Virus record (IMG/VR): IMGVR_UViG_3300042465_006114
Strand: one strand, 5' to 3'
Length of the DNA stretch: 20,000 bases
Origin: an uncultured virus (IMG/VR IMGVR_UViG_3300042465_006114)
Lineage: Duplodnaviria > Heunggongvirae > Uroviricota > Caudoviricetes
In this document: one piece after another, positions 2-19,439 of the stretch
Numbering within the stretch: the stretch's first letter is position 1
Layout: the number at the start of each line of letters is the position of its first letter
Notes under the pieces: generated by a model
The model's database searches: none
Told to the model about the DNA's origin: nothing
What the model saw: the letters and a program-made list of their open reading frames with translations, nothing else
Made by a program: the position numbers and the translations under genes

Positions 2-1369
2 TTATTTAATTTTGTTTATGTTTTTAGCATCAAATGCTCTAATCAATAAAGTTGCTTCTGTTTTATCCTCTGGCGAATCTAACGAATCTAATGGTTTTAA
101 ATTTTTATTATCTACTAAATCGAAAAATTCGTTTACTCTTACATCTGCTTCTAAAACACTTCTTTGTTGCTCTGTAAACAAATCTAAAAATGTTTTAACT
201 GCAATCTGTAAAGTTTTCGGACTTTTTATTCTTTTATCTCCTTGTCTTTCATTAAGCCTAAAAGCAATATAGGTATCTCTCATAGAAATCATTAACCTTT
301 GAGAAACAAAAGCTCTACTTGAAAAATTATTATCCTCTACTGCGGTTCTTAATTTGAATAAGAAATTAAATATAAAAGTGAAATTTGCTAGTTCATCCCC
401 AATCTTAATATTGGACATTAAATTATCTAATTCGTATTGTGGGTCAATAATCAATTCGTATGTACTTCCAGCAAACCTATCTTGTAAAGATAAATCTTGT
501 TTAAAATTCGCTTCATAGTTCACATCAGCTTCATTCAATAAAGAGTTTCCAGTTGCAATAACAAATACGTTTCCTTTTGTTATTACTTGTCCTCTACCGT
601 TTGTAATTTCTGGTCTTATCTCTAAACCCTCTTGTGTTCTTTCGGAAGGGTCTTTAATTTTTGACAAACCATCATTTAATACCCCAGCGGTATTTGGGTC
701 AAGTTTAGGTAACTCGTCTAATAATAAAACTGCACCAGAAAAATATTTTCCAGTTCTTTTATTCATTTCTTTTCTTGCATCTGTATATCCAAATGCATCA
801 ATTAATCTACCCTCTTGATAACCCTCAATAGTTTGCCCACCAACTATATCCAAAGGAGAAGTAAATTGATTACAGTTCAAAGTTATCAATTTATAGTTTA
901 AGGCATTTGCTACTTCTTTTGCAATAAAAGTTTTTCCAGTACCAGCACCACCATAAAGGTAAATATTGTTTCCAGCTTCAAAATCAGAAAGCATCAAATC
1001 AAAAATCTTTCTTTTCTTCCCATCTCCAGTTTTAACAACAACATTTTGCCAGTTAATAATCTGAACGGTTTGTGTTTTACCAATAAGCTCCAATACAGTT
1101 GAATCTAAATTATTTTTACCAATTTTGGTATCTCTAAATTTATCATCTACAATATCTTCAACTTGTTTCTTATCAACACCAGCTTTTGCTAACTTGTCTA
1201 TTGATTGATTAAACTCTCTTACCGCAAATAAAATATCATTATTAATACCTTCTACTCCAGAGGAAGTTTGCAAGGCATTTAACTTTCCTAATTGACCTTT
1301 TGCATCATCTCTTGTTTCTTGTGATAATGTTGTGTCGTTAATTACGATTTCTAATTCTTCTCTTGTCAT
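2..1369 (-). CDS. MoxR/CobS-like AAA+ ATPase (AAA_5 type)
   Basis: Walker A GGAGTGKT, Walker B LLLDE, sensor-1-like IATGN, arginine-finger-like QDRF; complete ORF with TAA at 2-4. Confidence 0.85.
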   Translation of the reverse strand: MTREELEIVINDTTLSQETRDDAKGQLGKLNALQTSSGVEGINNDILFAVREFNQSIDKLAKAGVDKKQVEDIVDDKFRDTKIGKNNLDSTVLELIGKTQTVQIINWQNVVVKTGDGKKRKIFDLMLSDFEAGNNIYLYGGAGTGKTFIAKEVANALNYKLITLNCNQFTSPLDIVGGQTIEGYQEGRLIDAFGYTDARKEMNKRTGKYFSGAVLLLDELPKLDPNTAGVLNDGLSKIKDPSERTQEGLEIRPEITNGRGQVITKGNVFVIATGNSLLNEADVNYEANFKQDLSLQDRFAGSTYELIIDPQYELDNLMSNIKIGDELANFTFIFNFLFKLRTAVEDNNFSSRAFVSQRLMISMRDTYIAFRLNERQGDKRIKSPKTLQIAVKTFLDLFTEQQRSVLEADVRVNEFFDLVDNKNLKPLDSLDSPEDKTEATLLIRAFDAKNINKIK

Positions 1370-1372
1370 AAT

Positions 1373-2395
1373 TTATATATTTTCTAATTCTGTTATGAAA
1401 TTACTTGTTATTAATTTTTGTTTTTCAAATCTACTCAAACTTTCGGATAAACCAACTTGTGTGATTATAAAATCTAATTCATTTGGCGACAACAAACTTA
1501 CAAAAGATTTTACAGATTTTTCTGTTGGGAATTGTCTTTTAATATCTTCTCTATCAGTATGAAGCATATCTACAATAGCATTTAACACTCCATCTATTTT
1601 TTTATCTGAATTACTTTGTGGCTCTGGAAAATCTGGTAATTCAAAATCCATATCATCTGGCTCTCCTTCTCCTTGTTCTCCACGCTTTTCGTAGTCAATT
1701 TTATCCTTTAATTCTTTGTCTTTATAACCTTTCGTAAAATCGTTTTCGGCTTCTCCTTTTTCAACCTTGTCTAAAAAATCTTCTAAGTCAATTTCATCTC
1801 CAGTATTATCAGATTGACCGCTTTGAGATTTTCTTTTTTGGTCTTTTTTTAATTCGTCTAATAATTTTTTAATATCTTCTGACGACATTCCTTCTCCTTC
1901 TCCTTCTCCTTCTCCCTCTCCTTCTCCTTCTCCCTCTCCTTCTCCTTCTCCTTCTCCTTCTCCTTCTTCTTTTTCTTTTTCTTTTTCCTCTTGCTTCTTT
2001 TTTTCTTCCTCTAATTCATCTTTCAATTTTTCAAGTAGCATTTCATTAAAAACTTTAGCAACTATTTCATATTTCTCGTTAAAGAAATTTAAAACATCTG
2101 GTAGATTATTGAATTTTAAATCTGCATAATCATCTCTAAATTTATAATCCCCTTCTTCAAAATTATTTATAAGAAAATGCATTTCTGTATCAAAATTATC
2201 ACTTATAATTTCCATTGATGAATAAAAAGAACAACCTATTGGATACCTAACAAAAGTCATTTTTTGTCTAAAAAACACTTCATCAGAGGTAATTTTTAAA
2301 TCATCATTTTTATTTTTTTTACTACTATCAAAATAATAGTAATCTGGAAACAACGGAACTAATCCTAACTCTTTTATTTTTTCTTGAATATTCAT
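1373..2395 (-). CDS. Acidic hypothetical protein with (GE)n linker, probable AAA+ partner
   Basis: 340-aa ORF 2-3 nt from its neighbours; coiled-coil K/E stretch followed by a GE dipeptide run; no MIDAS (DxSxS) motif seen. Confidence 0.7.
   Translation of the reverse strand: MNIQEKIKELGLVPLFPDYYYFDSSKKNKNDDLKITSDEVFFRQKMTFVRYPIGCSFYSSMEIISDNFDTEMHFLINNFEEGDYKFRDDYADLKFNNLPDVLNFFNEKYEIVAKVFNEMLLEKLKDELEEEKKKQEEKEKEKEEGEGEGEGEGEGEGEGEGEGEGEGEGMSSEDIKKLLDELKKDQKRKSQSGQSDNTGDEIDLEDFLDKVEKGEAENDFTKGYKDKELKDKIDYEKRGEQGEGEPDDMDFELPDFPEPQSNSDKKIDGVLNAIVDMLHTDREDIKRQFPTEKSVKSFVSLLSPNELDFIITQVGLSESLSRFEKQKLITSNFITELENI
1889..1966 (-). repeat. Hexanucleotide coding microsatellite (GAAGGA)n encoding Glu-Gly repeats
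   Basis: About 13 tandem tccttc/tccctc units on the + strand. Confidence 0.95.
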
Positions 2396-2397
2396 AT

Positions 2398-5300
2398 TTA
2401 TAAAATTCCTCCTAAATCAAATCTTGAATCATTAGACAATGCGTTAAACTCGTATGCATCTGCAAACTTAATTTGATTGCTATCAAAAGCACAATAAGAA
2501 AGCGATGCGTTTTCCAATCCACCATAAGGTTTTGTTGGTATGTATTCGTAAAAAATATAACCATCATAAGTTGTGAACACTTTTACATATTTTGTAAAAG
2601 ACTGCCACAATCTAATTATCTGCCAAGCATAAACCTCTGTGTCTTGTGTAAATCCACTATGTGAAGTTATGTTAGTCCAGAAATCAAAATCTCCAATATT
2701 ATAGTTTACTCTTAAAAAAGTAAGGTATTCTCTAATAGGATATTTTTCAACACCAAACCTTGAAAAATCAATTGGGTTCTTAATATCAATAAAGCATCTC
2801 AATAAAAAATTACCTCTATTTGGATTTAACTTTTTAAGTATTTCCGAATCCACTCCAGCTTTATCCGCCCTATCTTCCCAACTTGTAGCAAAAAACTCCG
2901 ACATCTCTCTCTTGACTGCAAAATAATGTGCGTTATTGGTTTCGTATGTTTTCCAATTTACAAATAAAACGTTTGTTCCGTGAAATACTGGTTGTGGTTC
3001 TTTTGTAATTGGATTAATAACTTTCGATACTCCAGCATAACTATCGTTTAAATATGCGGTTTCCCAATCTCCAAAAAACGATTTAAACTCTGGCGTTCTA
3101 ACATTAAAATATTCTATTTCTGTTAATTGTGATTTTAAAGCGTTTATAGAGGTCATATCTGTTTCTTCGTATTGTTTATCAAAACTTGAAATCTTTAACC
3201 CATATACACCTATTACTCTTTCCTCAATAGATTTTAAACTCATTTCAGCATCGTTAAGTTTTCTCAACTTCAAAATAAATGAATTAATCTCTCTTTGGTA
3301 AAAAGCAACTTCTTCATTTGATAGTATTGGTTTTTTTAAATCCAACTCTTTTGCTAAATCTGAAATCCTTTGCGATAAGTATTTACGTTCTAACTCAAAA
3401 TTACGTTTTGGTTTTTCGGTTTTGCTTGGCTTTGGTTCTTCAATAATTTCTTTTGGAGCATCATAAAGATTAAATTCATCCCAATTATATTTATCTGTAA
3501 ATTCTTTTCTACTATAAATAAAACCAACAAGGTCTGTATAATTTAATAAATTTCTTAAAAAAGTAACGTTACCGTATGTTTTACCATTTTGGTCAACTAT
3601 TTTAAATTCAAAATAATCTCTTTTTGGAAATAGTGAATAATAATCTTTTAAATGGACTAGCAATTGTACAGCACTATAAATTCCAAAGTCAGAAGTGAAT
3701 TGTCCATCTTCCGAAACTGGATACAGTTTCCAAACACTTACTTTTTCTTTTGATACTTCTTCATAATCATCATACATACCTATCTTTTGTAAAAACTTTA
3801 ATGTATTTGGGTCTGCTGGATATAATCCTTGACCATCAATAACAGTCAGCCTATAAACAGTAGGCGGTTCTAATTTATAAAATTCTTTAAAGTAACTTCC
3901 TTTTATGTCTAATATTCTTATTTCTTTTTCTAAAATCCAACCCCCTTTTTTAATAAATTCTAAAATTAATTTTTTAATTTCAACATCTTCATCTGTAATA
4001 CTTTCTTCATCAATTATAGGCGTTGAAGTTGATTGAGTTTTTTTCCAGTCTAAATAACCAAAAATCAATAATTTTGAATTATCAGAAATCATCAAATCTT
4101 CTTTAGGAATACCTAAACTATATTTATAAGACCGAAGTGTAACAACATCTCCAGTATCCGTATTTACTATGTCAAAATCTAATGTTTTATCGCCTTTACT
4201 CCAATCATTTATATTTACTAAGGTAAGATTATTATTCTCAATTACACTATCAATTTGCTTAAACATATCAATTTCTCCAGAAGTAAACTTACTAATAGTT
4301 TTTTCGGTTTTACTTGATATTCCTAAATCAGAAGCAAAAATTTCTTTTCTTTTTGAAGCATAAAATTCGCTTTTTCCATTATTATAAACTACAAAATCAT
4401 CAGTAAATATTTCTATAAAAATATCTTCAATAGACAATAATTCCCTATCTCCGTAATTTTTATCAATTGGAATACCTATTTCAGTAAGTTTTTGCATTAC
4501 CATATCCCTTAAAGCTAAATCAGCTCCAATCCATATTTTAGATTGTTCTAATTCTTCTTTAATAAGTGTTTTACCAGTTTGTTCTTTGGTTTTACTTGGG
4601 GTAGCCTTTGGAGTTCTTTTAGCTCTTTCTTTTGTAGTTTTTATTTCTAAATCAACTAAACTACCATCAGCATTTCTTATTTCATTATCATCAAAATCAA
4701 AATAAACATTTAACTTTGTATTTTTATCTTTATTTTCAGTACCATACATTCCAAGTTCTCCATAAACAAAAGGCATCATTAATCCAATAACGTCTTTACC
4801 TAAAGTAAAAGATGGGTAATAGGTAAAAATTAAAGCTCTTTTATTAGTTTGAAAACTAACATTCATAAATGTACTTCCGCCAAGCTTAACTAATGAACTT
4901 AAAAAGTTAATCATTAAATCTGGAAAAACAGCCATTTTTTCATCATTAATTTTAAATACAACTTCTTTATTATAAGAATAGTTTGAAGCTACTTTAAAGT
5001 AAGTTAATAACTTTAAAATATCAATATATACAACCCTTTTAACTTCTATTTCTTTAGGTATAACTTGTGCGTAATTTGGGTATTTAACATCAAGTTTAAT
5101 GAAACCATCTGGAAACACCTCTTTTAAAGATTTTGAACTTAATTTTTCTTTTTTATAAACGCCTTTAAAATCTCTTTCGTCAGAAGGTATGGTTAATAAA
5201 ATATGTGCGTTAGTAGCGGTAATTCCATTTTCGTCAAAGTTAATACCAGTCATTGCTGGTCGTAATGGCTCTGTACCTAAAAACGGTTTTAAAATTTCAT

Positions 5301-6216
5301 TTAACCCATCATCACTTGGACTTGCATCCCATTCTACCTTTTTTGGTAATCTAATATTTTTAAAAGAATCTGGTATTTCGCTCCAATTATTAACTGTAAC
5401 GTCAGTAGCACCACCTTTTGCATAACTAAAAACAATAGAACCTCCATCAGCAAATAAACCAGTTTCAGCACCAACTACTCCATCAGCATCCATATCTATT
5501 ACATCATTGTAATTGTTTAAATCCCTTGCTGGTGTATTTCCTTTTTTTGAATCTCTAACAAGACTTACTTTACGAACTACTCCACCGTGTTTTAATCCAG
5601 CTCTTTTAAGTAAAGTATAATATTTTGGGTTTTCGTACAAATGGTCTTTTACGATTTTCATTTGTTCACGTTTACTAGAAGTATGTTCGCTTTCAGCTTT
5701 CATACCTAAGTCAACTTGTGTTTGTAATTCTTTTACAGAAACTTTATGTTTTTTAGCAATTTGAGTAAGTGTCATTCCTTCGGCTAAATGTCCTCCAGTA
5801 ATGTGTTTGTATATTTCGTGGTCGGTCATTGTTTTACCACCATACTTATAACTTGCTCCAGTACGTTTTATGTTTTTAGGTATATCGCCACCTTTTGCAA
5901 ATGAAACTCCACCACCTTTTTCGTTTATTGCAGATAACACTTCTCTGTTAGTCATCATTTTACCATTAAACTCATTTTTGGTGTTGTCTGATACTGCTGG
6001 TGCGGTAATAACAACTTCTCCACCTTGCATTTCCAATGCTTGTCCAGTAGATTTGTTTACTGCTTTAATACCACCCTCTGCGTGAGTTTTACCTACTAAA
6101 TATCCGCTTAAAGTTCCTTTGTTATGTATAATAGTCTGCCCTTGTCTTTTACCAACGAGTACTCCGCCAGTAGGCGTTTGTTCTGCTTTATTTTCTGTTA
6201 GGGTTGATTTTTTCAT
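2398..6216 (-). CDS. Large polyvalent phage protein: GG-motif N-terminus, DUF5661-like, beta-clamp-like and C-terminal ART-PolyVal-like ADP-ribosyltransferase domains
   Basis: GMKAESEHT...IVKDHLYENPKYYTLL (DUF5661-like); RPAMTGINFD..ATNAHIL...YPNYAQVIP...LMMP (DnaN-like); RTPEFKSFFGDWE..SKVIN..PVFHGT..YF..IKNP..YDG..FDSNQIK (ART-PolyVal-like). Confidence 0.75.
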   Translation of the reverse strand: MKKSTLTENKAEQTPTGGVLVGKRQGQTIIHNKGTLSGYLVGKTHAEGGIKAVNKSTGQALEMQGGEVVITAPAVSDNTKNEFNGKMMTNREVLSAINEKGGGVSFAKGGDIPKNIKRTGASYKYGGKTMTDHEIYKHITGGHLAEGMTLTQIAKKHKVSVKELQTQVDLGMKAESEHTSSKREQMKIVKDHLYENPKYYTLLKRAGLKHGGVVRKVSLVRDSKKGNTPARDLNNYNDVIDMDADGVVGAETGLFADGGSIVFSYAKGGATDVTVNNWSEIPDSFKNIRLPKKVEWDASPSDDGLNEILKPFLGTEPLRPAMTGINFDENGITATNAHILLTIPSDERDFKGVYKKEKLSSKSLKEVFPDGFIKLDVKYPNYAQVIPKEIEVKRVVYIDILKLLTYFKVASNYSYNKEVVFKINDEKMAVFPDLMINFLSSLVKLGGSTFMNVSFQTNKRALIFTYYPSFTLGKDVIGLMMPFVYGELGMYGTENKDKNTKLNVYFDFDDNEIRNADGSLVDLEIKTTKERAKRTPKATPSKTKEQTGKTLIKEELEQSKIWIGADLALRDMVMQKLTEIGIPIDKNYGDRELLSIEDIFIEIFTDDFVVYNNGKSEFYASKRKEIFASDLGISSKTEKTISKFTSGEIDMFKQIDSVIENNNLTLVNINDWSKGDKTLDFDIVNTDTGDVVTLRSYKYSLGIPKEDLMISDNSKLLIFGYLDWKKTQSTSTPIIDEESITDEDVEIKKLILEFIKKGGWILEKEIRILDIKGSYFKEFYKLEPPTVYRLTVIDGQGLYPADPNTLKFLQKIGMYDDYEEVSKEKVSVWKLYPVSEDGQFTSDFGIYSAVQLLVHLKDYYSLFPKRDYFEFKIVDQNGKTYGNVTFLRNLLNYTDLVGFIYSRKEFTDKYNWDEFNLYDAPKEIIEEPKPSKTEKPKRNFELERKYLSQRISDLAKELDLKKPILSNEEVAFYQREINSFILKLRKLNDAEMSLKSIEERVIGVYGLKISSFDKQYEETDMTSINALKSQLTEIEYFNVRTPEFKSFFGDWETAYLNDSYAGVSKVINPITKEPQPVFHGTNVLFVNWKTYETNNAHYFAVKREMSEFFATSWEDRADKAGVDSEILKKLNPNRGNFLLRCFIDIKNPIDFSRFGVEKYPIREYLTFLRVNYNIGDFDFWTNITSHSGFTQDTEVYAWQIIRLWQSFTKYVKVFTTYDGYIFYEYIPTKPYGGLENASLSYCAFDSNQIKFADAYEFNALSNDSRFDLGGIL

Positions 6217-6239
6217 ATTTATTTTAGTATAATAAAAAG

Positions 6240-6247
6240 CAAATATA
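6240..6247 (-). promoter_or_regulatory. Bacteroidota-type -7 promoter element TATATTTG for the polyvalent protein operon
   Basis: caaatata on +, 23 nt upstream of the start at 6216; matches TAnnTTTG. Confidence 0.65.
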
Positions 6248-6380
6248 AATAATTAAATTGAATCATTTTAATTATATTTTAAATAATAATTATTTTGTAT
6301 TTGTTTTAAACTGAACTAATTGCAAAATAAAAAATTTCATTTATTTTTAATATTATTTATAATATTATTTTATAATTATA

Positions 6381-6388
6381 TATATTTG
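6381..6388 (+). promoter_or_regulatory. Bacteroidota-type -7 promoter element TATATTTG for the small + strand gene
   Basis: tatatttg 28 nt upstream of the ATG at 6417. Confidence 0.65.
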
Positions 6389-6416
6389 TGGTTATTAATT
6401 AATAAAAATTAAAAAG

Positions 6417-6536
6417 ATGCAAGACGTATTTAACATTAAAAGTCCAAACTGGTTGGGAGGTACAAATGTACATAACACAATTACAATTGTGTTGTTAGTA
6501 TTAGTAGCTTACAAAGTTGGAGCATTTAAAAAGTAA
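6417..6536 (+). CDS. 39-aa single-TM membrane peptide (MQDVFNIKSPNWLGGTNVHNTITIVLLVLVAYKVGAFKK), not in the ORF track
   Basis: Hand translated; own promoter element, A-rich leader, hydrophobic segment with basic C-tail, terminator directly downstream. Confidence 0.75.
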   Translation: MQDVFNIKSPNWLGGTNVHNTITIVLLVLVAYKVGAFKK

Positions 6537-6556
6537 TTAAATTATTTTTTTAGTGT

Positions 6557-6590
6557 AAAAAAAATGCCACTCTTTCGGGTGGCTTTTTTT
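6557..6590. terminator. Bidirectional intrinsic terminator
   Basis: A8 tract, stem GCCACTC-TTTC-GGGTGGC (6566-6583), T7 tract; lies between convergent genes. Confidence 0.85.
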
Positions 6591-6738
6591 CGTTAATGCT
6601 AAAAACTATACAATCCTTTTAAAAAACATCAACTTCCTACTTACTCAATTATTGGCTCGGCTATCCGTTTCTATATATATGTTTATCTGAAACTTCAATA
6701 GATTGTTGACTGTCCACTTCTACCTACTCAAATAGTTT

Positions 6739-7067: not shown

Positions 7068-8351
7068 TTATTTTACTAATCTATCAATAATTACTTTGAA
7101 TTGCTTTGCAATACCTTCCCACTTCATTGCGGAAACTTTATTAAAAGCGTTTTCTATTTTTTGCTTAACTTGTTCTTGCAGTTCTGGTTCTTCGTTTGAT
7201 AATCCATAAACAACTTCGCATAAAGTTTTTACTTCCATTGGGTTTGTTGTAAGTCTTATTTTTTCAAAGTCATTTACAAATACCGATTGTTGGCTAAACA
7301 TAAAATTCAAAGTGTTTTCTCCGTTGTCTGTTATCTCTGTAATAGAAGTGTGTTTTGGACAAACCACAAGTGTTTTAGTAGCCATAGCTTCTGTTATTGT
7401 TAATCCCCAACCTTCCGCAGTTGTAGTGGTAATAAAGCAATCAAATGAATTGTAGATTTTATTTAGTTCTTCTGGAGTGCAACCTTTATTTTCTGAAAAA
7501 TCTTTTGGAACAATTACATCTTTACCTACTTCCAGTCCTACTCTATCGCAAAGTCTATAAATGTTTATCCCCATAGGGTCTGTTGGATTACAATGAAGAT
7601 ATAACAAGGCATCAGCACCAGTAGTGTGTTTGAACATAGCAAATCCCATAATAAGACTTCCGAAATCTTTTCTAACTTGGTTTCTGTTTACGCTTCCGAA
7701 TACAAATGTATTTTCTCTTTCAGCACCAAATAATTCAACTTTAGCTAATCCTTTGTTTAATTCCGAATAAGGATAAAAATCGGTTGTATTAGTTCCGTGC
7801 GGTATAATTTTAATCTTTTTGAATTGTGTGTCAGAAAGTAACGGTTTCATCACTCCTTTGGCGTATTGCGTATAAGTAACTACTTCATCGAAAAATGATA
7901 ATACTTTTAAATCAGCCATTCTTGGCTCACTATCAATTGGGAAATAAATTATCGACTTAAAGTTAGGTCGGTTTTCTTCTCTCTTTTTATTTTTTACTTC
8001 TTTTAGATTATCAGCCATTGCATTAATAACTTCTACATCTTGTAAAAAAAACAAAGCATCAAAATCGTTTTGATAAATTATTTGAAGTAACTCAATTCGT
8101 CTATAAACATCTCCTCTAGTGTCTTTGTCGCCAGTTTGCAAAGCTGGTATTACTTTTACGTTTGGTAAGTAATCATAAACTGCTTTACTCTTATCATTAA
8201 TAGCAAAAATGACAATACTTAAATTTTTGTCTTTCGCCCATTCATTTACAAGTTCTTTAGCAACTGCTCCAAATCCAGTTGTGCAATTCCAATCAGCATA
8301 TACTAATAATGATTTTTGTGTTTCTACTTTTTTGCGGTGTACGACTTTCAT
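7068..8351 (-). CDS. Glycosyltransferase family 4 (GT-B fold)
   Basis: TGFG N-terminal loop, IPHG, VNRNQVRKD, EGWGLTITEAMA (Ex7E motif). Confidence 0.9.
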   Translation of the reverse strand: MKVVHRKKVETQKSLLVYADWNCTTGFGAVAKELVNEWAKDKNLSIVIFAINDKSKAVYDYLPNVKVIPALQTGDKDTRGDVYRRIELLQIIYQNDFDALFFLQDVEVINAMADNLKEVKNKKREENRPNFKSIIYFPIDSEPRMADLKVLSFFDEVVTYTQYAKGVMKPLLSDTQFKKIKIIPHGTNTTDFYPYSELNKGLAKVELFGAERENTFVFGSVNRNQVRKDFGSLIMGFAMFKHTTGADALLYLHCNPTDPMGINIYRLCDRVGLEVGKDVIVPKDFSENKGCTPEELNKIYNSFDCFITTTTAEGWGLTITEAMATKTLVVCPKHTSITEITDNGENTLNFMFSQQSVFVNDFEKIRLTTNPMEVKTLCEVVYGLSNEEPELQEQVKQKIENAFNKVSAMKWEGIAKQFKVIIDRLVK

Positions 8352-8695
8352 AATTTGTTGTTTTAAGTTTCTGGTTGTAAATATACTATTTATTAAATAA
8401 ATAATATTTGATTGTATGAATTAATGCTTTTATATAAAAGTATATCCATATTAAAACTGTTATCCAAGACATCACTATTAATATAGATAAAGTCAAATTA
8501 TAATAAAATTTTATACTTTTATGAAAACTAAATTCTTGTAAAATTTTTTGACTTTGTTCAAATAATCCTATTGTGTTTGGTTCATTTAAAATTTTTAAAA
8601 TGTAAATTCCAATTGGATATGCTACAAAGCATCCTAATAAATAAATTTGTAATCCGTTCATAATTTTTGTTTTTAAGTTTCTGGTTGTAAATATA
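8347..8695 (-). repeat. 39-bp direct repeats (8347-8385 and 8657-8695) spanning a promoter-like element, leader and start codon
   Basis: 36/39 identical; perfect 25-nt core ttttaagtttctggttgtaaatata at 8361-8385 and 8671-8695. Confidence 0.95.
8386..8661 (-). CDS. Hypothetical two-TM membrane protein
   Basis: Two hydrophobic segments; ORF lies exactly between the direct repeats. Confidence 0.65.
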   Translation of the reverse strand: MNGLQIYLLGCFVAYPIGIYILKILNEPNTIGLFEQSQKILQEFSFHKSIKFYYNLTLSILIVMSWITVLIWIYFYIKALIHTIKYYLFNK

Positions 8696-9209
8696 TGTTA
8701 ATTATTTTATTTTCTTTTTCGTATTCTAATCTTTTTAAGTATGCTTCTTCTTCGGTTTTAAACATTCCCAAATTTATTTTTTTGTGATTTATTTGAATTT
8801 GACTTAACCATCTTTTATCTCTTGAAATATAAGAAACTCCTCTATAAACACTTGAAGTTTTTTTACCTATAAATCTATGACAATTATTTTCTGATGCTGA
8901 AACCCATTCTAAATTTTCAATTCTATTGTCTTTTCGGTTTAAATTTTTGTGATTTACTTGTTTTTTATTATTTTCATTACTAATAAAAGATTTAGCAATC
9001 AATCTATGAACTCTAAATAATTTTGTTTTTTTTTCAAAAATTAAGTGAATCAAACAATAACCATCTTTGTCTAAATATTGAGGTATTATTTTTTTTTCAT
9101 TTTTAATTCTACCAAAATTACTTACTTGATACAAAATATCAAAACCATCTAACTCTTTCCAAATTTCGCCTTTTATATCTTTGTTAGATATATTTTTATG
9201 AATTTCCAT
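8673..9209 (-). CDS. NUMOD4-HNH homing endonuclease with C-terminal AP2-like domain
   Basis: EIWK..YQVSNFGRIK (NUMOD4); VHRLIA..VNHKN..DNRIENLEW (HNH_3); SSVYRGVS..W..LGMFKTEEEA (AP2-like). ATG at 9209 preferred to GTG at 9224. Confidence 0.9.
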   Translation of the reverse strand: MEIHKNISNKDIKGEIWKELDGFDILYQVSNFGRIKNEKKIIPQYLDKDGYCLIHLIFEKKTKLFRVHRLIAKSFISNENNKKQVNHKNLNRKDNRIENLEWVSASENNCHRFIGKKTSSVYRGVSYISRDKRWLSQIQINHKKINLGMFKTEEEAYLKRLEYEKENKIINIYLQPET

Positions 9210-9337
9210 AATAATAAAAAGCACCTAATTTCGTAAAATGGTGGATTCACTACTCTCAAATGCTATTAAATTTATATTTTTTCGCCACTTACATTATTCC
9301 ACCATAGATAATGTATTGAAAATATAATAAAAAAAAT

Positions 9338-13068: not shown

Positions 13069-13256
13069 CAAGGTTTAAGACCTTGTGTAAAAAAGTTAGG
13101 GTCAAGCCGAGAACTCATTTGTGTTGTATGGTGCGTAACTTTTATACAATTAAGTATTCTGTCCATCTAAATTCAGCAATTCCTTTCTCAAGGGAACAAC
13201 ACATTCAGACTCACATCTGATATTCTTATTTATACTCGTGTCAATGTTTTCCGAGT
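13069..13256 (-). ncRNA. Candidate structured RNA with several stems and pseudoknots
   Basis: Six complementary segment pairs in a 250-nt intergenic gap (see findings). Confidence 0.55.
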
Positions 13257-13261
13257 TTTTA

Positions 13262-13603
13262 TTAGCAATGATGCTCTTCTCTATGACAATTTGAACAAAG
13301 AAGTATGCATTTATCTAACTCAAGTTTTAAATCATCTGATAGCCCACCTCTTGAATTAAAATAGTCTTTATCTTTTGTACTAGGGTCTATGTGATGAAAC
13401 TCTAATGCTGCAATACATTTGTTGTATCCACATTTTATACATTTACCACCTTTATAATCTACCGCCAGTTGCTTTGTATTTCTTTGTCTTTCTTTATTAG
13501 ATATGACAATACAAGATTTACAATAAGAACTAGCTTTGGTTGATTTATAAAAATCATCTTTAGATTTACTTAATTTACACTTAGGACATACTTTATTACT
13601 CAT
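13262..13603 (-). CDS. Zinc-binding HNH endonuclease
   Basis: CPKC..CKSC N-terminal zinc motif; CIKCGY..LEFHHIDP..LLCSNCHREEH. ATG at 13603 preferred to TTG at 13609. Confidence 0.85.
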   Translation of the reverse strand: MSNKVCPKCKLSKSKDDFYKSTKASSYCKSCIVISNKERQRNTKQLAVDYKGGKCIKCGYNKCIAALEFHHIDPSTKDKDYFNSRGGLSDDLKLELDKCILLCSNCHREEHHC

Positions 13604-13784
13604 TGTCAATTGTTTTAAAAATAAAGGTTTTATACATTATGGATAACCTTTAACCACCTACCATTACTGATAGTATCTTTGTGTAAAGCGTTAAAGTCTA
13701 TCTTAACTACATCTTATTAAATGGTAGGGATTTAACCTACGTTTCTTTACAAAGGTATTCAATGTTTAACCTTAACTTTATTAG

Positions 13785-13855
13785 TTACCCAAATAGGATT
13801 TGAACCTATAATGACTGCACCAAAAACAGTAGTGTTACCGTTACACTATCGGGCA
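13785..13855 (-). tRNA. trnQ: tRNA-Gln (anticodon TTG), CCA not encoded
   Basis: TGCCCGA/TTGGGTA acceptor stem, GTGT-AACGGTA-ACAC D arm, ACTGT-TTTTGGT-GCAGT anticodon arm, ATAGG-TTCAAAT-CCTAT T arm. Confidence 0.95.
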
Positions 13856-19151: not shown

Positions 19152-19271
19152 AATAGGTTTTTTGGTTTAACAAAATAATAATGAATTATTTTAGTTAAAA
19201 TTTAGTTAAAATTATTATTTAGATGTTTCGGTTAATTCTAGTTTATTTTTTTTTTAAAAAAAAATTAAAAT

Positions 19272-19439
19272 AGTTATTCCCACGAAGTTCCCAAATTTCT
19301 TTGTAAGTTGTTGAATATTAGTACTAAAAGTCCCAAGTTATTCCCACGAAAAAAAAGTTATTCCCACGAAATTCCTAAATTTATTTGTAAGTCATTGAAA
19401 ATCAACACTAAAAGTTCCACAAAAGTCCCACGAAAAAAA
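19272..19439. repeat. Two imperfect 84-bp tandem units containing four CCCACGAA boxes
   Basis: agttattcccacgaa at 19272, 19336 and 19356; variant aagtcccacgaa at 19423. Confidence 0.9.

What the first reader, a model, noticed from the sequence alone, without database searches (positions are those of the whole stretch)
13069..13256. Candidate multi-pseudoknot non-coding RNA downstream of the tRNA and HNH gene
Seen on the minus strand: hairpins ACUCG/CGAGU (13256-13234) and UCAGA/UCUGA (13220-13205); long-range stem UGUGUUGU/ACAACACA (13203-13196 with 13127-13120); a UCC/GGA hairpin whose loop UUGAGAA pairs with UUCUCGG (13113-13107) using G-U pairs valid only on this strand; a 12/13-bp stem (13148-13136 with 13098-13086) that crosses the long-range stem; and hairpin CAAGGU/ACCUUG (13085-13069). 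I cannot match it to a named family. Inference: a ribozyme, conformational switch or nuclease-associated RNA.
Basis: partly seen in the sequence, partly recalled or inferred. Interest (0 to 1): 0.72.

Follow-up and report, generated by a model that had tools for sequence, protein, structure and literature searches.

The report
Phage structured RNA gene invaded by HNH
The flagged stretch is a real gene for a folded, pseudoknotted non-coding RNA found in many phages but missing from the RNA catalogue and of unknown job, and here a selfish HNH nuclease gene has inserted into its front end.

Summary
The finding is real but larger than flagged. Window 13256-13037 (minus strand) encodes an uncatalogued phage RNA family. 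A pattern scan found 88 stretches in viral contigs. Only two contigs matched among 185,579 species genomes, both from metagenome bins.

The RNA has a 5' hairpin P0, a GNRA-capped hairpin P1, a long-range stem P2 and a hairpin P3. The P3 loop pairs with UUCUCGG as a pseudoknot. A variable arm P4 and a 3' stem domain complete it.

- P1, P2 and P3 covary.
- The pseudoknot has double compensatory changes in two lineages and breaks in two others.
- Rfam has no match.

A homologue lies in Cellulophaga phage phi14:2, in the interval where Drobysheva et al. reported an abundant unexplained RNA. This scan had already found the family in six other windows.

What is new here is the HNH arrangement. The HNH gene sits between a truncated native 5' fragment, cut exactly after P1, and a complete gene with a substitute P0'-P1' module. 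That pattern indicates homing, not partnership. The RNA's function remains unknown.

The parts
13784..13855 (-). tRNA-Gln (UUG), immediately upstream of the RNA gene on the same strand
   Evidence: ARAGORN; Rfam tRNA model, 56.7 bits
13746..13773 (-). Native (canonical) P0: hairpin AAGGU/ACCUU with loop UAAACAUUGAAU, followed by UUGUAAA. This is the start of the truncated native 5' fragment
   Evidence: Sequence. The same motif lies upstream of the core in about 65 of 73 distinct family members. RNA-library contigs cover it at depth 306-3581
13674..13745 (-). Native variable leader, ending in the conserved CUUUACACAAAGAUA
   Evidence: the majority of members carry UUUACAUAAAGAUAC directly before P1
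13658..13673 (-). Native P1 (CUAUCA-GUAA-UGGUAG). The native gene copy is cut off immediately after its last G
   Evidence: Identical to the commonest P1 of the family. The sequence after 13658 (GUGG...) departs from the family's AUGUGUUG
13617..13651 (-). Terminator-like hairpin AAAGGUU/AACCUUU plus a U run, in front of the HNH gene
   Evidence: Read from the sequence. Inference only; the scan did not list it
13262..13609 (-). HNH endonuclease gene (115 aa from TTG at 13609; ATG at 13603), read here as a free-standing homing endonuclease
   Evidence: Pfam HNH, E = 0.0011, 19.5 bits against a cut-off of 21.4. 70 relatives in viral contigs. Homologous stretches in named phages are annotated HNH endonuclease
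13234..13256 (-). P0': substitute 5' hairpin ACUCG/CGAGU with loop GAAAACAUUGACA
   Evidence: The stem covaries across ACUCG/CGAGU, AGUCG/CGACU, AGUGG/CCACU, ACUUGA/UCAAGU and CUUCGC/GCGAAG
13221..13233 (-). Short linker AUAAAUAAGAAUA of the short-leader allele class
   Evidence: P0' lies at a fixed distance of 45-47 nt from P2 in members of this class
13205..13220 (-). P1': UCAGAU-GUGA-GUCUGA, 6 bp with a GNRA tetraloop
   Evidence: All 6 P1 pairs show changes on both sides across 69 sequences
13197..13203 (-). P2 5' strand UGUGUUG
   Evidence: Pairs with 13126-13120. 99.4% of cells are paired and 2 of 7 pairs show compensatory change. L002 replaces the whole helix with ACGUGAG/CUCACGU
13180..13196 (-). 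P3: UUCC-CUUGAGAAA-GGAA. Loop bases 13191-13185 (UUGAGAA) form the 5' strand of the pseudoknot
   Evidence: 3 of 4 P3 pairs have compensatory changes, for example UCAC/GUGG in phi14:2 and UUGC/GCAA in L002
   Evidence: The length of the stretch between GGA and CAAAUGAG varies from about 29 to 73 nt and the sequence is not conserved. The closing helix in this window is my inference, by analogy with other members
13120..13126 (-). P2 3' strand CAACACA
13114..13119 (-). Invariant joiner AAUGAG
   Evidence: Invariant in 69 of 69 aligned sequences, though fixed by the search pattern. Also kept in L002, which was found through its protein neighbour and not by that pattern
13107..13113 (-). Pseudoknot 3' strand UUCUCGG, pairing with 13191-13185
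   Evidence: Double compensatory change CUUUGGAAA with UUCCAAG in L179/L251 and in L249/L250. Uncompensated in L193 and L248
13037..13103 (-). 3' domain: ACCCU (13102-13098) with AGGGU (13046-13042), inner stem CUUUUUU/GAAGAAAG, apical hairpin CAAGGU/ACCUUG (13085-13069), tail GCUAA
   Evidence: Both anchors found in 65 of 73 members, with ACCCU/AGGGU in 47 of them. The inner stem has many different complementary versions. The window's MFE fold gives the same domain

Best explanation
Window 13256-13037 (minus strand) is a gene for a stable, independently folding, trans-acting non-coding RNA. It belongs to a large family that is essentially confined to phages, probably phages of Bacteroidota.

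The RNA has two parts:
- a compact 5' core: P0, then GNRA-capped P1, then P2 enclosing P3 and the variable P4, with the P3 loop locked to a downstream strand as a pseudoknot;
- a 3' stem domain ending in GCUAA.

The gene lies in the phage's tRNA/tmRNA gene neighbourhood and is probably transcribed with it.

The adjacent HNH gene is not a partner. It is a homing endonuclease that has inserted exactly at the P1|P2 junction. Upstream it leaves the native P0-leader-P1 fragment (13773-13658). Downstream lies a complete gene whose 5' end is a substitute P0'-P1' module, so the RNA can still be made.

Shown: the family, the fold, the strand, the phage restriction and the insertion architecture.

Inferred:
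- The RNA works by binding a conserved host or phage factor of translation or RNA metabolism. The loop, joiner and pseudoknot bases stay fixed even when all the stems change. I put this functional guess at about 0.3.
- The HNH enzyme cuts intact alleles at or near the P1|P2 junction.
For: Family:
- Scanning with the core pattern gave 88 stretches in viral contigs, 73 distinct with the window.
- The covariance model R1 hit 81 of 81 sources searched, at 52-110 bits.
- Only 2 contigs matched in genomes of 185,579 species; both come from metagenome bins.

Fold:
- 96.4% of cells are paired against 88.0% in shuffles; 0 of 500 shuffles reach the observed value.
- 11 of 24 pairs have changes on both sides.
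- Partners slid by 1-3 columns pair in only 38-50% of cells.
- L002 has wholly different P2 and P3 stems but the same loop, joiner and pseudoknot strand.
- The pseudoknot is compensated at two pairs in two lineages.

Strand:
- There are many U.G pairs.
- 42 of 42 neighbouring tRNA/tmRNA genes lie on the same strand as the RNA.

Expression:
- Contigs from RNA libraries of four runs in three studies carry the intact P1|P2 joint at depth 195-5481. The HNH ORF has depth 3-12 in the same runs.
- The phi14:2 homologue (84 bits) begins 8 nt after g004.
- It lies in an interval with no CDS up to g006.
- Drobysheva et al. report the g004-g005 junction as very abundant and stable through infection (passages read).

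No partner protein: the largest flank cluster covers 5 of 72 loci.

HNH insertion:
- The window and L074 carry different native 5' fragments.
- Both fragments are cut at the same nucleotide, after the last G of P1.
- HNH follows in opposite orientations.
- A shared segment comes next: P0', P1', P2 5' and P3, 92.4% identical over 79 nt.
Against: - Function is not established by anything here.
- The pseudoknot breaks in 2 of 4 lineages that carry the UUCCAAG strand (L193, L248). Its end pairs are not always kept: U140C in 5 of 79 matches and U49G in 1 of 79.
- Most sequences were collected with patterns that fixed the loop, joiner and pseudoknot strand, so their invariance is partly built in.
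- RNA-library contigs cannot prove transcription. DNA carry-over, and summing one conserved word over many phages, could inflate depth (tool caveat).
- I saw neither the paper's coordinates for the phi14:2 transcripts nor its supplementary tables.
- Only 23 of 72 loci have a tRNA or tmRNA within 1.5 kb.
- P0 could be a DNA-level hairpin promoter and not part of the RNA.
- The opposite HNH orientations in the window and in L074 are not explained by simple homing.
- L073 has HNH beside the RNA without any remnant.
- The HNH Pfam score is below the curated cut-off.
Confidence: 0.8

Rival explanations
1. A self-cleaving ribozyme or RNA-processing module that cuts itself out of the polycistronic tRNA/tmRNA/ncRNA precursor. 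The invariant loop, joiner and pseudoknot would form the active site.
For: - The core sequence stays invariant while the stems change.
- The fold is compact and pseudoknotted, with GNRA tetraloops.
- The RNA sits in rows of RNA genes on one strand.
Against: - No hammerhead, twister, twister-sister, hatchet, pistol, HDV-like or glmS model matches, even at E up to 10 in the window or at gathering score in 20 loci.
- No read-level ends were available; one search gave contigs only.
- In phi14:2 the RNA accumulates as an abundant stable species, which suits a functional end product as well as a ribozyme.
Confidence: 0.1
2. A cis-acting leader, either a riboswitch or a protein-binding operator, that controls the downstream gene (here the 178-aa ORF at 13008-12472).
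For: The RNA ends 28 nt before the ORF start in the window. A conserved pseudoknotted pocket is typical of aptamers.
Against: - Downstream genes are unrelated between loci; the largest flank cluster covers 5 of 72.
- The 178-aa protein has no relatives in viral contigs.
- Several members are followed at once by a tmRNA gene.
- Others are followed by a terminator directly after the 5' core (L144, L156, L254).
Confidence: 0.05
3. A guide or cofactor RNA of the neighbouring HNH nuclease, by analogy with the RNAs of IscB or TnpB.
For: The three closest relatives of the HNH protein (84%, 57% and 57% identity) are the only 3 of 70 HNH loci that carry the RNA within 3 kb.
Against: - Only 4 distinct places among about 75 have this HNH beside the RNA.
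- Orientation flips between them.
- The same RNA allele occurs without HNH (L071, L072, L078, L105).
- The protein is a 115-aa HNH-only protein with no RuvC or bridge-helix parts.
- A different endonuclease family (NUMOD4/HNH_3) sits beside the RNA elsewhere (L081).
- There is no variable guide-like end.
Confidence: 0.03
4. Mainly a DNA-level element: hairpin promoters, a replication or packaging signal, or simply the recognition site of homing endonucleases, with no functional RNA product.
For: P0 has a conserved TTGA-containing loop and stands at the 5' edge. The gene is a repeated target of endonuclease genes.
Against: - U.G pairs are valid on one strand only.
- Long-range P2 and the pseudoknot covary across variable inserts.
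- RNA libraries show high depth over the core.
- The homologous interval of phi14:2 gives an abundant transcript.
Confidence: 0.04

Closest known systems
The abundant 'long non-coding RNA' of the g004-g005 junction of Cellulophaga crAss-like phage phi14:2 (Drobysheva et al., bioRxiv 10.1101/2020.03.07.982082; passages read)
   Same: Homologous sequence and fold. R1 scores NC_021806 3102-3206 at 84 bits. P0 (from 2912), P1, P2, P3 (UCAC/GUGG, compensated), the joiner, the pseudoknot strand, the optional stem and the 3' domain (to 3359) are all present. It lies on the rightward strand, as the paper says of the transcript.
   Different: The paper reports only transcript abundance and timing, with no structure, family or function. 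I could not see its coordinates because the supplementary tables are closed. The phi14:2 copy has a long leader and the optional stem. The window's copy has the short P0'-P1' front, lacks the optional stem and has an HNH gene inserted.
GOLLD and ROOL RNAs (large phage- or prophage-borne structured RNAs often next to tRNA genes; recalled, not from a call)
   Same: Ornate phage-borne RNAs of unknown biochemical function that sit in tRNA gene neighbourhoods and carry GNRA-type tertiary-contact motifs.
   Different: No Rfam match to either. The RNA here is about 220 nt in the window, and about 450 nt in phi14:2 with its leader, against roughly 600-800 nt. There is no sequence likeness.
HEARO / IscB omega RNA (RNA associated with an HNH endonuclease)
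   Same: A structured, pseudoknotted RNA beside a gene with an HNH domain.
   Different: There is no Rfam HEARO match. The protein is a 115-aa HNH-only homing-type enzyme, not an IscB of about 400-500 aa with RuvC. The linkage is sporadic and occurs in both orientations.
Free-standing homing endonuclease genes of phages, and group I introns that carry HNH genes (recalled)
   Same: Sporadic HNH genes inserted at a highly conserved target. Flanking sequence travels with the gene. The carrier allele differs at the presumed recognition site.
   Different: - The target is a non-coding RNA gene.
- The insert is not an intron. No group I model matches. The junction letters do not fit group I splice sites. 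About 107 nt outside the ORF is too little for a ribozyme core.
- The intact joint exists as DNA in many phages.
Integrative elements that insert into tRNA or tmRNA genes and restore them with their own copy of the displaced end (recalled)
   Same: Insertion into a stable-RNA gene, a displaced native fragment left on one side, and a substitute end that keeps the gene whole.
   Different: No integrase is present. The replaced part is the 5' end. The substitute differs in sequence, keeping only the fold.

Membership tests
Uncatalogued phage RNA family (phi14:2 g004-g005 RNA family) | GNRA-capped P1 directly before A-UGUGUUG | tested here: met
   Window 13220-13205 is UCAGAU-GUGA-GUCUGA. P1 covaries at 6 of 6 pairs. 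R1 scores the window at 90.2 bits.
Uncatalogued phage RNA family (phi14:2 g004-g005 RNA family) | P2 enclosing P3 (loop CUUGAGAAA) and a variable P4 | tested here: met
   Window 13203-13120. P2 is 99.4% paired and P3 98.2% paired across 69 sequences.
Uncatalogued phage RNA family (phi14:2 g004-g005 RNA family) | Joiner AAUGAG, then a strand complementary to the P3 loop (pseudoknot) | tested here: met
   Window 13119-13107. It has UUCUCGG, giving two U.G pairs; 7 of 79 pattern-free matches share this form. The pseudoknot covaries in two lineages.
Uncatalogued phage RNA family (phi14:2 g004-g005 RNA family) | 3' domain closed by ACCCU/AGGGU with tail GCUAA | tested here: met
   Window 13103-13037.
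Uncatalogued phage RNA family (phi14:2 g004-g005 RNA family) | Optional stem AAGUAGUUA...UAACUACGU between the core and the 3' domain | tested here: not met
   Absent in the window, as in 12 of 65 members with both anchors. It is not a defining feature.
HEARO / IscB omega RNA | Match to the Rfam model, and an adjacent IscB-type protein | tested here: not met
   No match at E up to 10. The neighbour is a 115-aa protein with HNH only.
Group I intron carrying an HNH gene | Interrupts a gene, has a ribozyme core that matches the model, and has U before the 5' splice site and G at the intron end | tested here: not met
   No group I match. The insert is flanked by ...UAG|G and ...UGA|A. About 107 nt lie outside the ORF. 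The intact joint is common as DNA.
Known self-cleaving ribozyme classes (hammerhead, twister, twister-sister, hatchet, pistol, HDV-like) | Match to the class model or topology | tested here: not met
   No Rfam match. HDV-like folds are poorly captured by sequence models, so for that class the result is inconclusive.
tRNA / tmRNA | Detected by ARAGORN or Rfam | tested here: not met
   Only tRNA-Gln at 13784-13855 is detected. tmRNA genes in other loci lie beside the RNA, not over it.
GOLLD / ROOL | Match to the Rfam model | tested here: not met
Free-standing HNH homing endonuclease | HNH catalytic motif | tested here: inconclusive
   Pfam HNH E = 0.0011, 19.5 bits, below the 21.4 cut-off. The C-terminal CxxC...NCHxxxH region is conserved in 70 relatives. 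DNA-level relatives are annotated HNH endonuclease in named phages.
Free-standing HNH homing endonuclease | Sporadic presence at one conserved site, with empty sites in relatives | tested here: met
   The junction is the same in the window and L074. Intact P1|P2 is present in most of the 73 distinct family members. The allele occurs without HNH in L071, L072, L078 and L105.
Free-standing HNH homing endonuclease | Cleaves the empty site | not testable with these tools
   Needs an enzyme assay.

The most novel reading that the evidence does not exclude
The invariant loop-joiner-pseudoknot core is the working centre of a new functional RNA class. Phages of Bacteroidota would use it to take over or protect the host's translation or tRNA machinery. 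It could be a decoy or sponge for a host defence or RNA-binding factor, or a new catalytic RNA. It would matter enough that homing endonucleases which invade its gene persist only when a substitute 5' module keeps the RNA whole.
Probability: 0.2. Interest if true: 0.85.

Novelty: new variant of a known kind. Interest (0 to 1): 0.62.

Why it matters
- The family is widespread in phages, appears highly expressed, and is absent from Rfam. It has a tightly conserved pseudoknotted core.
- A cultured model exists (phi14:2 on Cellulophaga baltica), so its function can be tested directly.
- This window adds a natural experiment. A selfish nuclease gene split the RNA gene at a helix boundary, and the gene is complete again downstream with a different P0-P1 front of the same fold. 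That argues the 5' hairpins are needed as structure, not as sequence, and that the phage cannot afford to lose this RNA.
- It also marks the P1|P2 junction as a probable homing site.
- It shows that conserved phage RNA genes, like tRNA genes for integrases, are landing pads for mobile elements.

Tried and rejected
- **Single-sequence folding.** It gives no signal, so I did not rely on it.
- **Relatives of the downstream 178-aa protein.** None in viral contigs.
- **The window in named phages.** The whole window has no near match. The window's own RNA did not reach E 1e-5 in the distant search. A canonical member was needed to find phi14:2.
- **Whole genome.** None is held for this window.
- **Sigma-70-type promoter and terminator scan.** Nothing useful around the RNA.
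- **P0 as a promoter.** I first read P0 plus the following TAnnTTTG or TATAAATA as a promoter. I could not fit the spacing of either sigma-70 or Bacteroidota promoters. RNA-library contigs cover P0 as deeply as the core, so I now lean towards P0 being part of the transcript. This remains unsettled.
- **Splicing of the HNH insert.** The joint 13658|13204 in RNA libraries looked like a spliced form. The same joint is the commonest DNA form in viral contigs, so it is not evidence of splicing.
- **Uncovered bins.** Parts of the stretch without cover (for example 13138-13171, the variable P4) say nothing.
- **Linked protein.** None found in the flanks.
- **Fremin et al. 2023 (PMC10690425).** I read passages and searched six supplementary files for six contig numbers, with no hit. 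Three files could not be searched, so I cannot say whether the family is among their candidates.
- **Nature version of the phi14:2 paper.** Not held.
- **Literature searches**. No paper describing this RNA family turned up.
- **The 522-nt ORF-free stretch 6217-6738.** z = -1.55, nothing striking.

Full report
**1. What is at the coordinates**

The finding lies in a 253-nt gap (13261-13009) on the minus strand, the coding strand of nearly all genes in the window. The gap separates a 115-aa HNH gene (13609-13262) from an orphan 178-aa ORF (13008-12472). A tRNA-Gln gene lies at 13855-13784.

As a single sequence, however, the stretch is unremarkable:
- The MFE z-score is -1.33 on the minus strand and -0.69 on the plus strand.
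- 200 of 200 shuffles have a perfect helix of at least 8 bp.
- 128 of 200 shuffles have at least 12 pairs with at most one mismatch.
- Rfam gives only the tRNA at gathering score. In the gap it gives nothing better than E = 1.2.

**2. Relatives**

The closest relative of the HNH protein is L001, 84% identical. It shares with the window only two things: the HNH gene, and two conserved blocks of the gap separated by unrelated sequence. One compensatory change was already visible in the first hairpin.

- An 18-base word from the first block found 6 viral contigs.
- A gapped pattern across both blocks found 88 stretches. With the window that makes 87 sequences, 73 of them distinct.
- A model of the 5' core (R1) hit 81 of 81 sources I searched, at 52-110 bits. 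The window scores 90.2 bits.
- A pattern scan of one genome for each of 185,579 prokaryote species found 2 contigs, both from metagenome bins.
- No protein family travels with the RNA. Among 437 flank ORFs from 72 loci, the largest cluster covers 5 loci.
- tRNA or tmRNA genes lie within 1.5 kb in 23 of 72 loci. All 42 such genes are on the RNA's strand.
- In several loci a tmRNA gene follows within a few tens of bases.

**3. The fold** (RNA sense is the window's minus strand)

*P0.* This is a hairpin with the conserved loop AAACAUUGA. It is present upstream of the core in about 65 of 73 members: 66 regex hits, one of them false by eye. In the short-leader class, to which the window belongs, the stem takes at least six different complementary forms.

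*P1.* Six base pairs capped by a GNRA tetraloop. All six pairs covary.

*P2.* UGUGUUG with CAACACA. Two of 7 pairs show compensatory change in the main set. L002 replaces the helix wholesale with ACGUGAG/CUCACGU.

*P3.* UUCC-CUUGAGAAA-GGAA. Three of 4 pairs are compensated. Examples are UCAC/GUGG in phi14:2 and UUGC/GCAA in L002.

*P4.* A variable arm.

*Joiner and pseudoknot.* The joiner AAUGAG comes next, followed by UUCUCAG (UUCUCGG in the window). That strand pairs with the P3 loop.

*Overall pairing.* Across the structure 96.4% of cells pair, against 88.0% in shuffles (0 of 500 as high). With slid partners the figure is 38-50%.

*Rows used.* That alignment holds 69 rows: 68 of the 73 distinct sequences plus phi14:2. 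I left out L112, L117, L147 and L155 as near-duplicates and L134 for an insertion.

**4. The pseudoknot**

My first patterns fixed both pseudoknot strands, so I re-scanned leaving them free. Of the 79 matches:
- 57 are canonical.
- 7 have A to G, giving a U.G pair.
- 4 change an unpaired loop base.
- 5 break one end pair (U140C).
- 1 breaks the other end pair (U49G).
- 1 has C to U, giving a G.U pair, plus an end mismatch (L184).
- 2 carry a two-hairpin expansion before an intact 3' strand (L176 and L188, seen in L256 and L255).
- 1 has both strands changed at two pairs (L179, CUUUGGAAA with UUCCAAG).
- 1 has the changed 3' strand with an unchanged loop (L193).

A metagenome scan for the changed 3' strand gave 4 loci. 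Three are compensated: L249 and L250 are identical, and L251 is like L179. One (L248) is not.

In total, two independent lineages are compensated and two are not. The changed loop never occurs with the canonical 3' strand. I take the pseudoknot as supported but not proven.

**5. The 3' domain, and what does not hold**

After the core, most members have an optional stem: 53 of the 65 with both anchors. The window lacks it. All 65 have a stem domain, closed by ACCCU/AGGGU in 47 of them, with a much-varied complementary inner stem and the tail GCUAA. The window's copy is 13103-13037 and folds that way on its own.

It also uses the strand that the family pairs inside the 3' domain. It is at chance level. 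I reject it.

Some members consist of the 5' core followed directly by a terminator (L144, L156, L254). The core is therefore a unit of its own.

**6. Evidence of expression**

A canonical member found Cellulophaga phage phi14:2, a crAss-like phage.
- Its copy runs from P0 at 2912 to GCUAA at 3359, on the rightward strand.
- It begins 8 nt after g004.
- It sits in a 1.7-kb interval without CDS, which also holds a tmRNA-like gene scoring 46 bits against a cut-off of 47.

Drobysheva et al. state the following (passages read):
- The g004-g005 and g005-g006 junctions are transcribed rightwards above most protein genes.
- They are present from the earliest time point and do not decline.
- Their function is unknown.

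I did not see their coordinates, so the match of RNA to transcript is an inference.

In four freshwater RNA libraries from three studies, the contig depths are as follows:

| Region | Depth |
|---|---|
| Family's intact P1\|P2 joint | 195-5481 |
| Bin 13172-13205, which holds P2 5' and P3 | 644-4219 |
| P0 bin (13750-13783) | 306-3581 |
| HNH ORF | 3-12 |

Contigs cannot prove transcription, and shared words add up over many phages. I treat this as suggestive only.

**7. The HNH gene**

Upstream of the HNH gene the window holds a second, canonical front end of the RNA gene:
- P0 at 13773-13746;
- a leader ending in CUUUACACAAAGAUA;
- P1 (CUAUCAGUAAUGGUAG) at 13673-13658.

Immediately after the last G of P1 the sequence leaves the family. 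Next come a terminator-like hairpin, the HNH ORF, P0' five bases after its stop codon, the short linker, P1' and the rest of the RNA.

L074 (the same contig as L001) is built the same way:
- It has a different native front, of the phi14:2 type, with P1 CGGAGUAAUUCUAG.
- That front is cut at the same nucleotide.
- The HNH gene is in the opposite orientation.
- The next segment (P0', P1', P2 5' and P3) is 92.4% identical to the window's over 79 nt.

Other arrangements:
- L073 has HNH without a remnant.
- L002/L003 has a 57%-identical HNH placed divergently beside a short-leader copy.
- L071, L072, L078 and L105 have the short-leader allele without HNH.

Two different native alleles are interrupted at one point and carry the same cassette. 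That is what homing gives. The flipped orientation and the origin of the substitute module remain unexplained.

The insert is not an intron. No intron model matches. The junction letters do not fit. Too little non-ORF sequence is present. The 'spliced' joint seen in RNA libraries is simply the common DNA form.

**8. A second endonuclease at the same RNA gene**

In L081 a NUMOD4/HNH_3-type endonuclease gene lies between two RNA genes. The first is a core-only copy ending in a terminator. The second is a divergent 'type B' copy that keeps a loop UGAGA complementary to UUCUCA and continues into the optional stem and 3' domain. L103 has a remnant of that endonuclease gene. L146 has the two RNA copies. 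These RNA genes are recurrent landing sites for homing endonucleases.

**9. Function**

Nothing here shows what the RNA does. Several things argue against a cis-regulator, against a host housekeeping RNA, and against a nuclease guide:
- the phage restriction;
- the tRNA/tmRNA neighbourhood;
- the apparent abundance;
- core bases that stay fixed even when every stem is replaced;
- the lack of a linked protein.

I commit to a trans-acting RNA that binds a conserved host or phage factor in translation or RNA metabolism, at about 0.3. A ribozyme is the main rival, at 0.1.

**10. Earlier work of this scan**

A look-up by sequence showed six earlier windows in which other agents reached the same family, the same phi14:2 link and the same 'function unknown'. 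I had reached these points independently. Those notes are not independent evidence. New here are the HNH insertion at the P1|P2 junction with a substitute 5' module, the pattern-free test of the pseudoknot, and the RNA-library depths.

Noticed in passing
window 8673-9224 (-): A second, unrelated homing-type endonuclease gene (NUMOD4 + HNH_3 + AP2 domains, 183 aa) lies between glycosyltransferase genes. The same family sits beside the RNA gene in locus L081.
   Followed up: partly
window 2398-6216 (-): A 1272-aa 'polyvalent' protein with DUF5661 near the N-terminus and an ADP-ribosyltransferase (ART-PolyVal) match at the C-terminus, below Pfam's cut-off.
   Followed up: no
window 19267-19439: Two tandem copies of an 84-nt unit (82% matches) that contain repeated GTTATTCCCACGAA / AGTCCCACGAA words, in an ORF-poor end of the window. 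These may be iterons or a regulatory array.
   Followed up: no
window 8338-8385 and 8648-8695: A 48-nt direct repeat (85% identical) flanks the small ORF 8386-8661, overlapping the gene starts on the minus strand.
   Followed up: no
window 6217-6738 (-): A 522-nt ORF-free stretch with a strong terminator-like hairpin (GCCACCC...GAGUGGC plus a U run). Fold z = -1.55. No Rfam match at gathering score.
   Followed up: partly
window 1889-1971: About 14 copies of a 6-nt unit (TCCTTC) inside the ORF 1373-2395 on the minus strand, that is, a repetitive peptide tract.
   Followed up: no
L081:1459-2400, L103 and L146 (oriented with the RNA on +): Core-only copy with terminator, then a NUMOD4/HNH_3 endonuclease gene (intact in L081, a remnant in L103), then a divergent 'type B' copy of the RNA. 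Type B keeps a loop complementary to UUCUCA and shares the 3' domain.
   Followed up: partly
L255 and L256 (viral contigs behind L188 and L176): An expansion of about 36 nt, forming two small hairpins between the joiner AAUGAG and the pseudoknot 3' strand. The first hairpin covaries between the two loci (UGAGU/ACUCA against CAAGU/ACUUG). One second hairpin has a GNRA loop.
   Followed up: partly
L166 (NC_021806) 4031-4502: A tmRNA-like match in phi14:2 at 46 bits, just under the gathering score of 47. It lies in the same CDS-free interval as the RNA and may be the paper's second abundant RNA.
   Followed up: no
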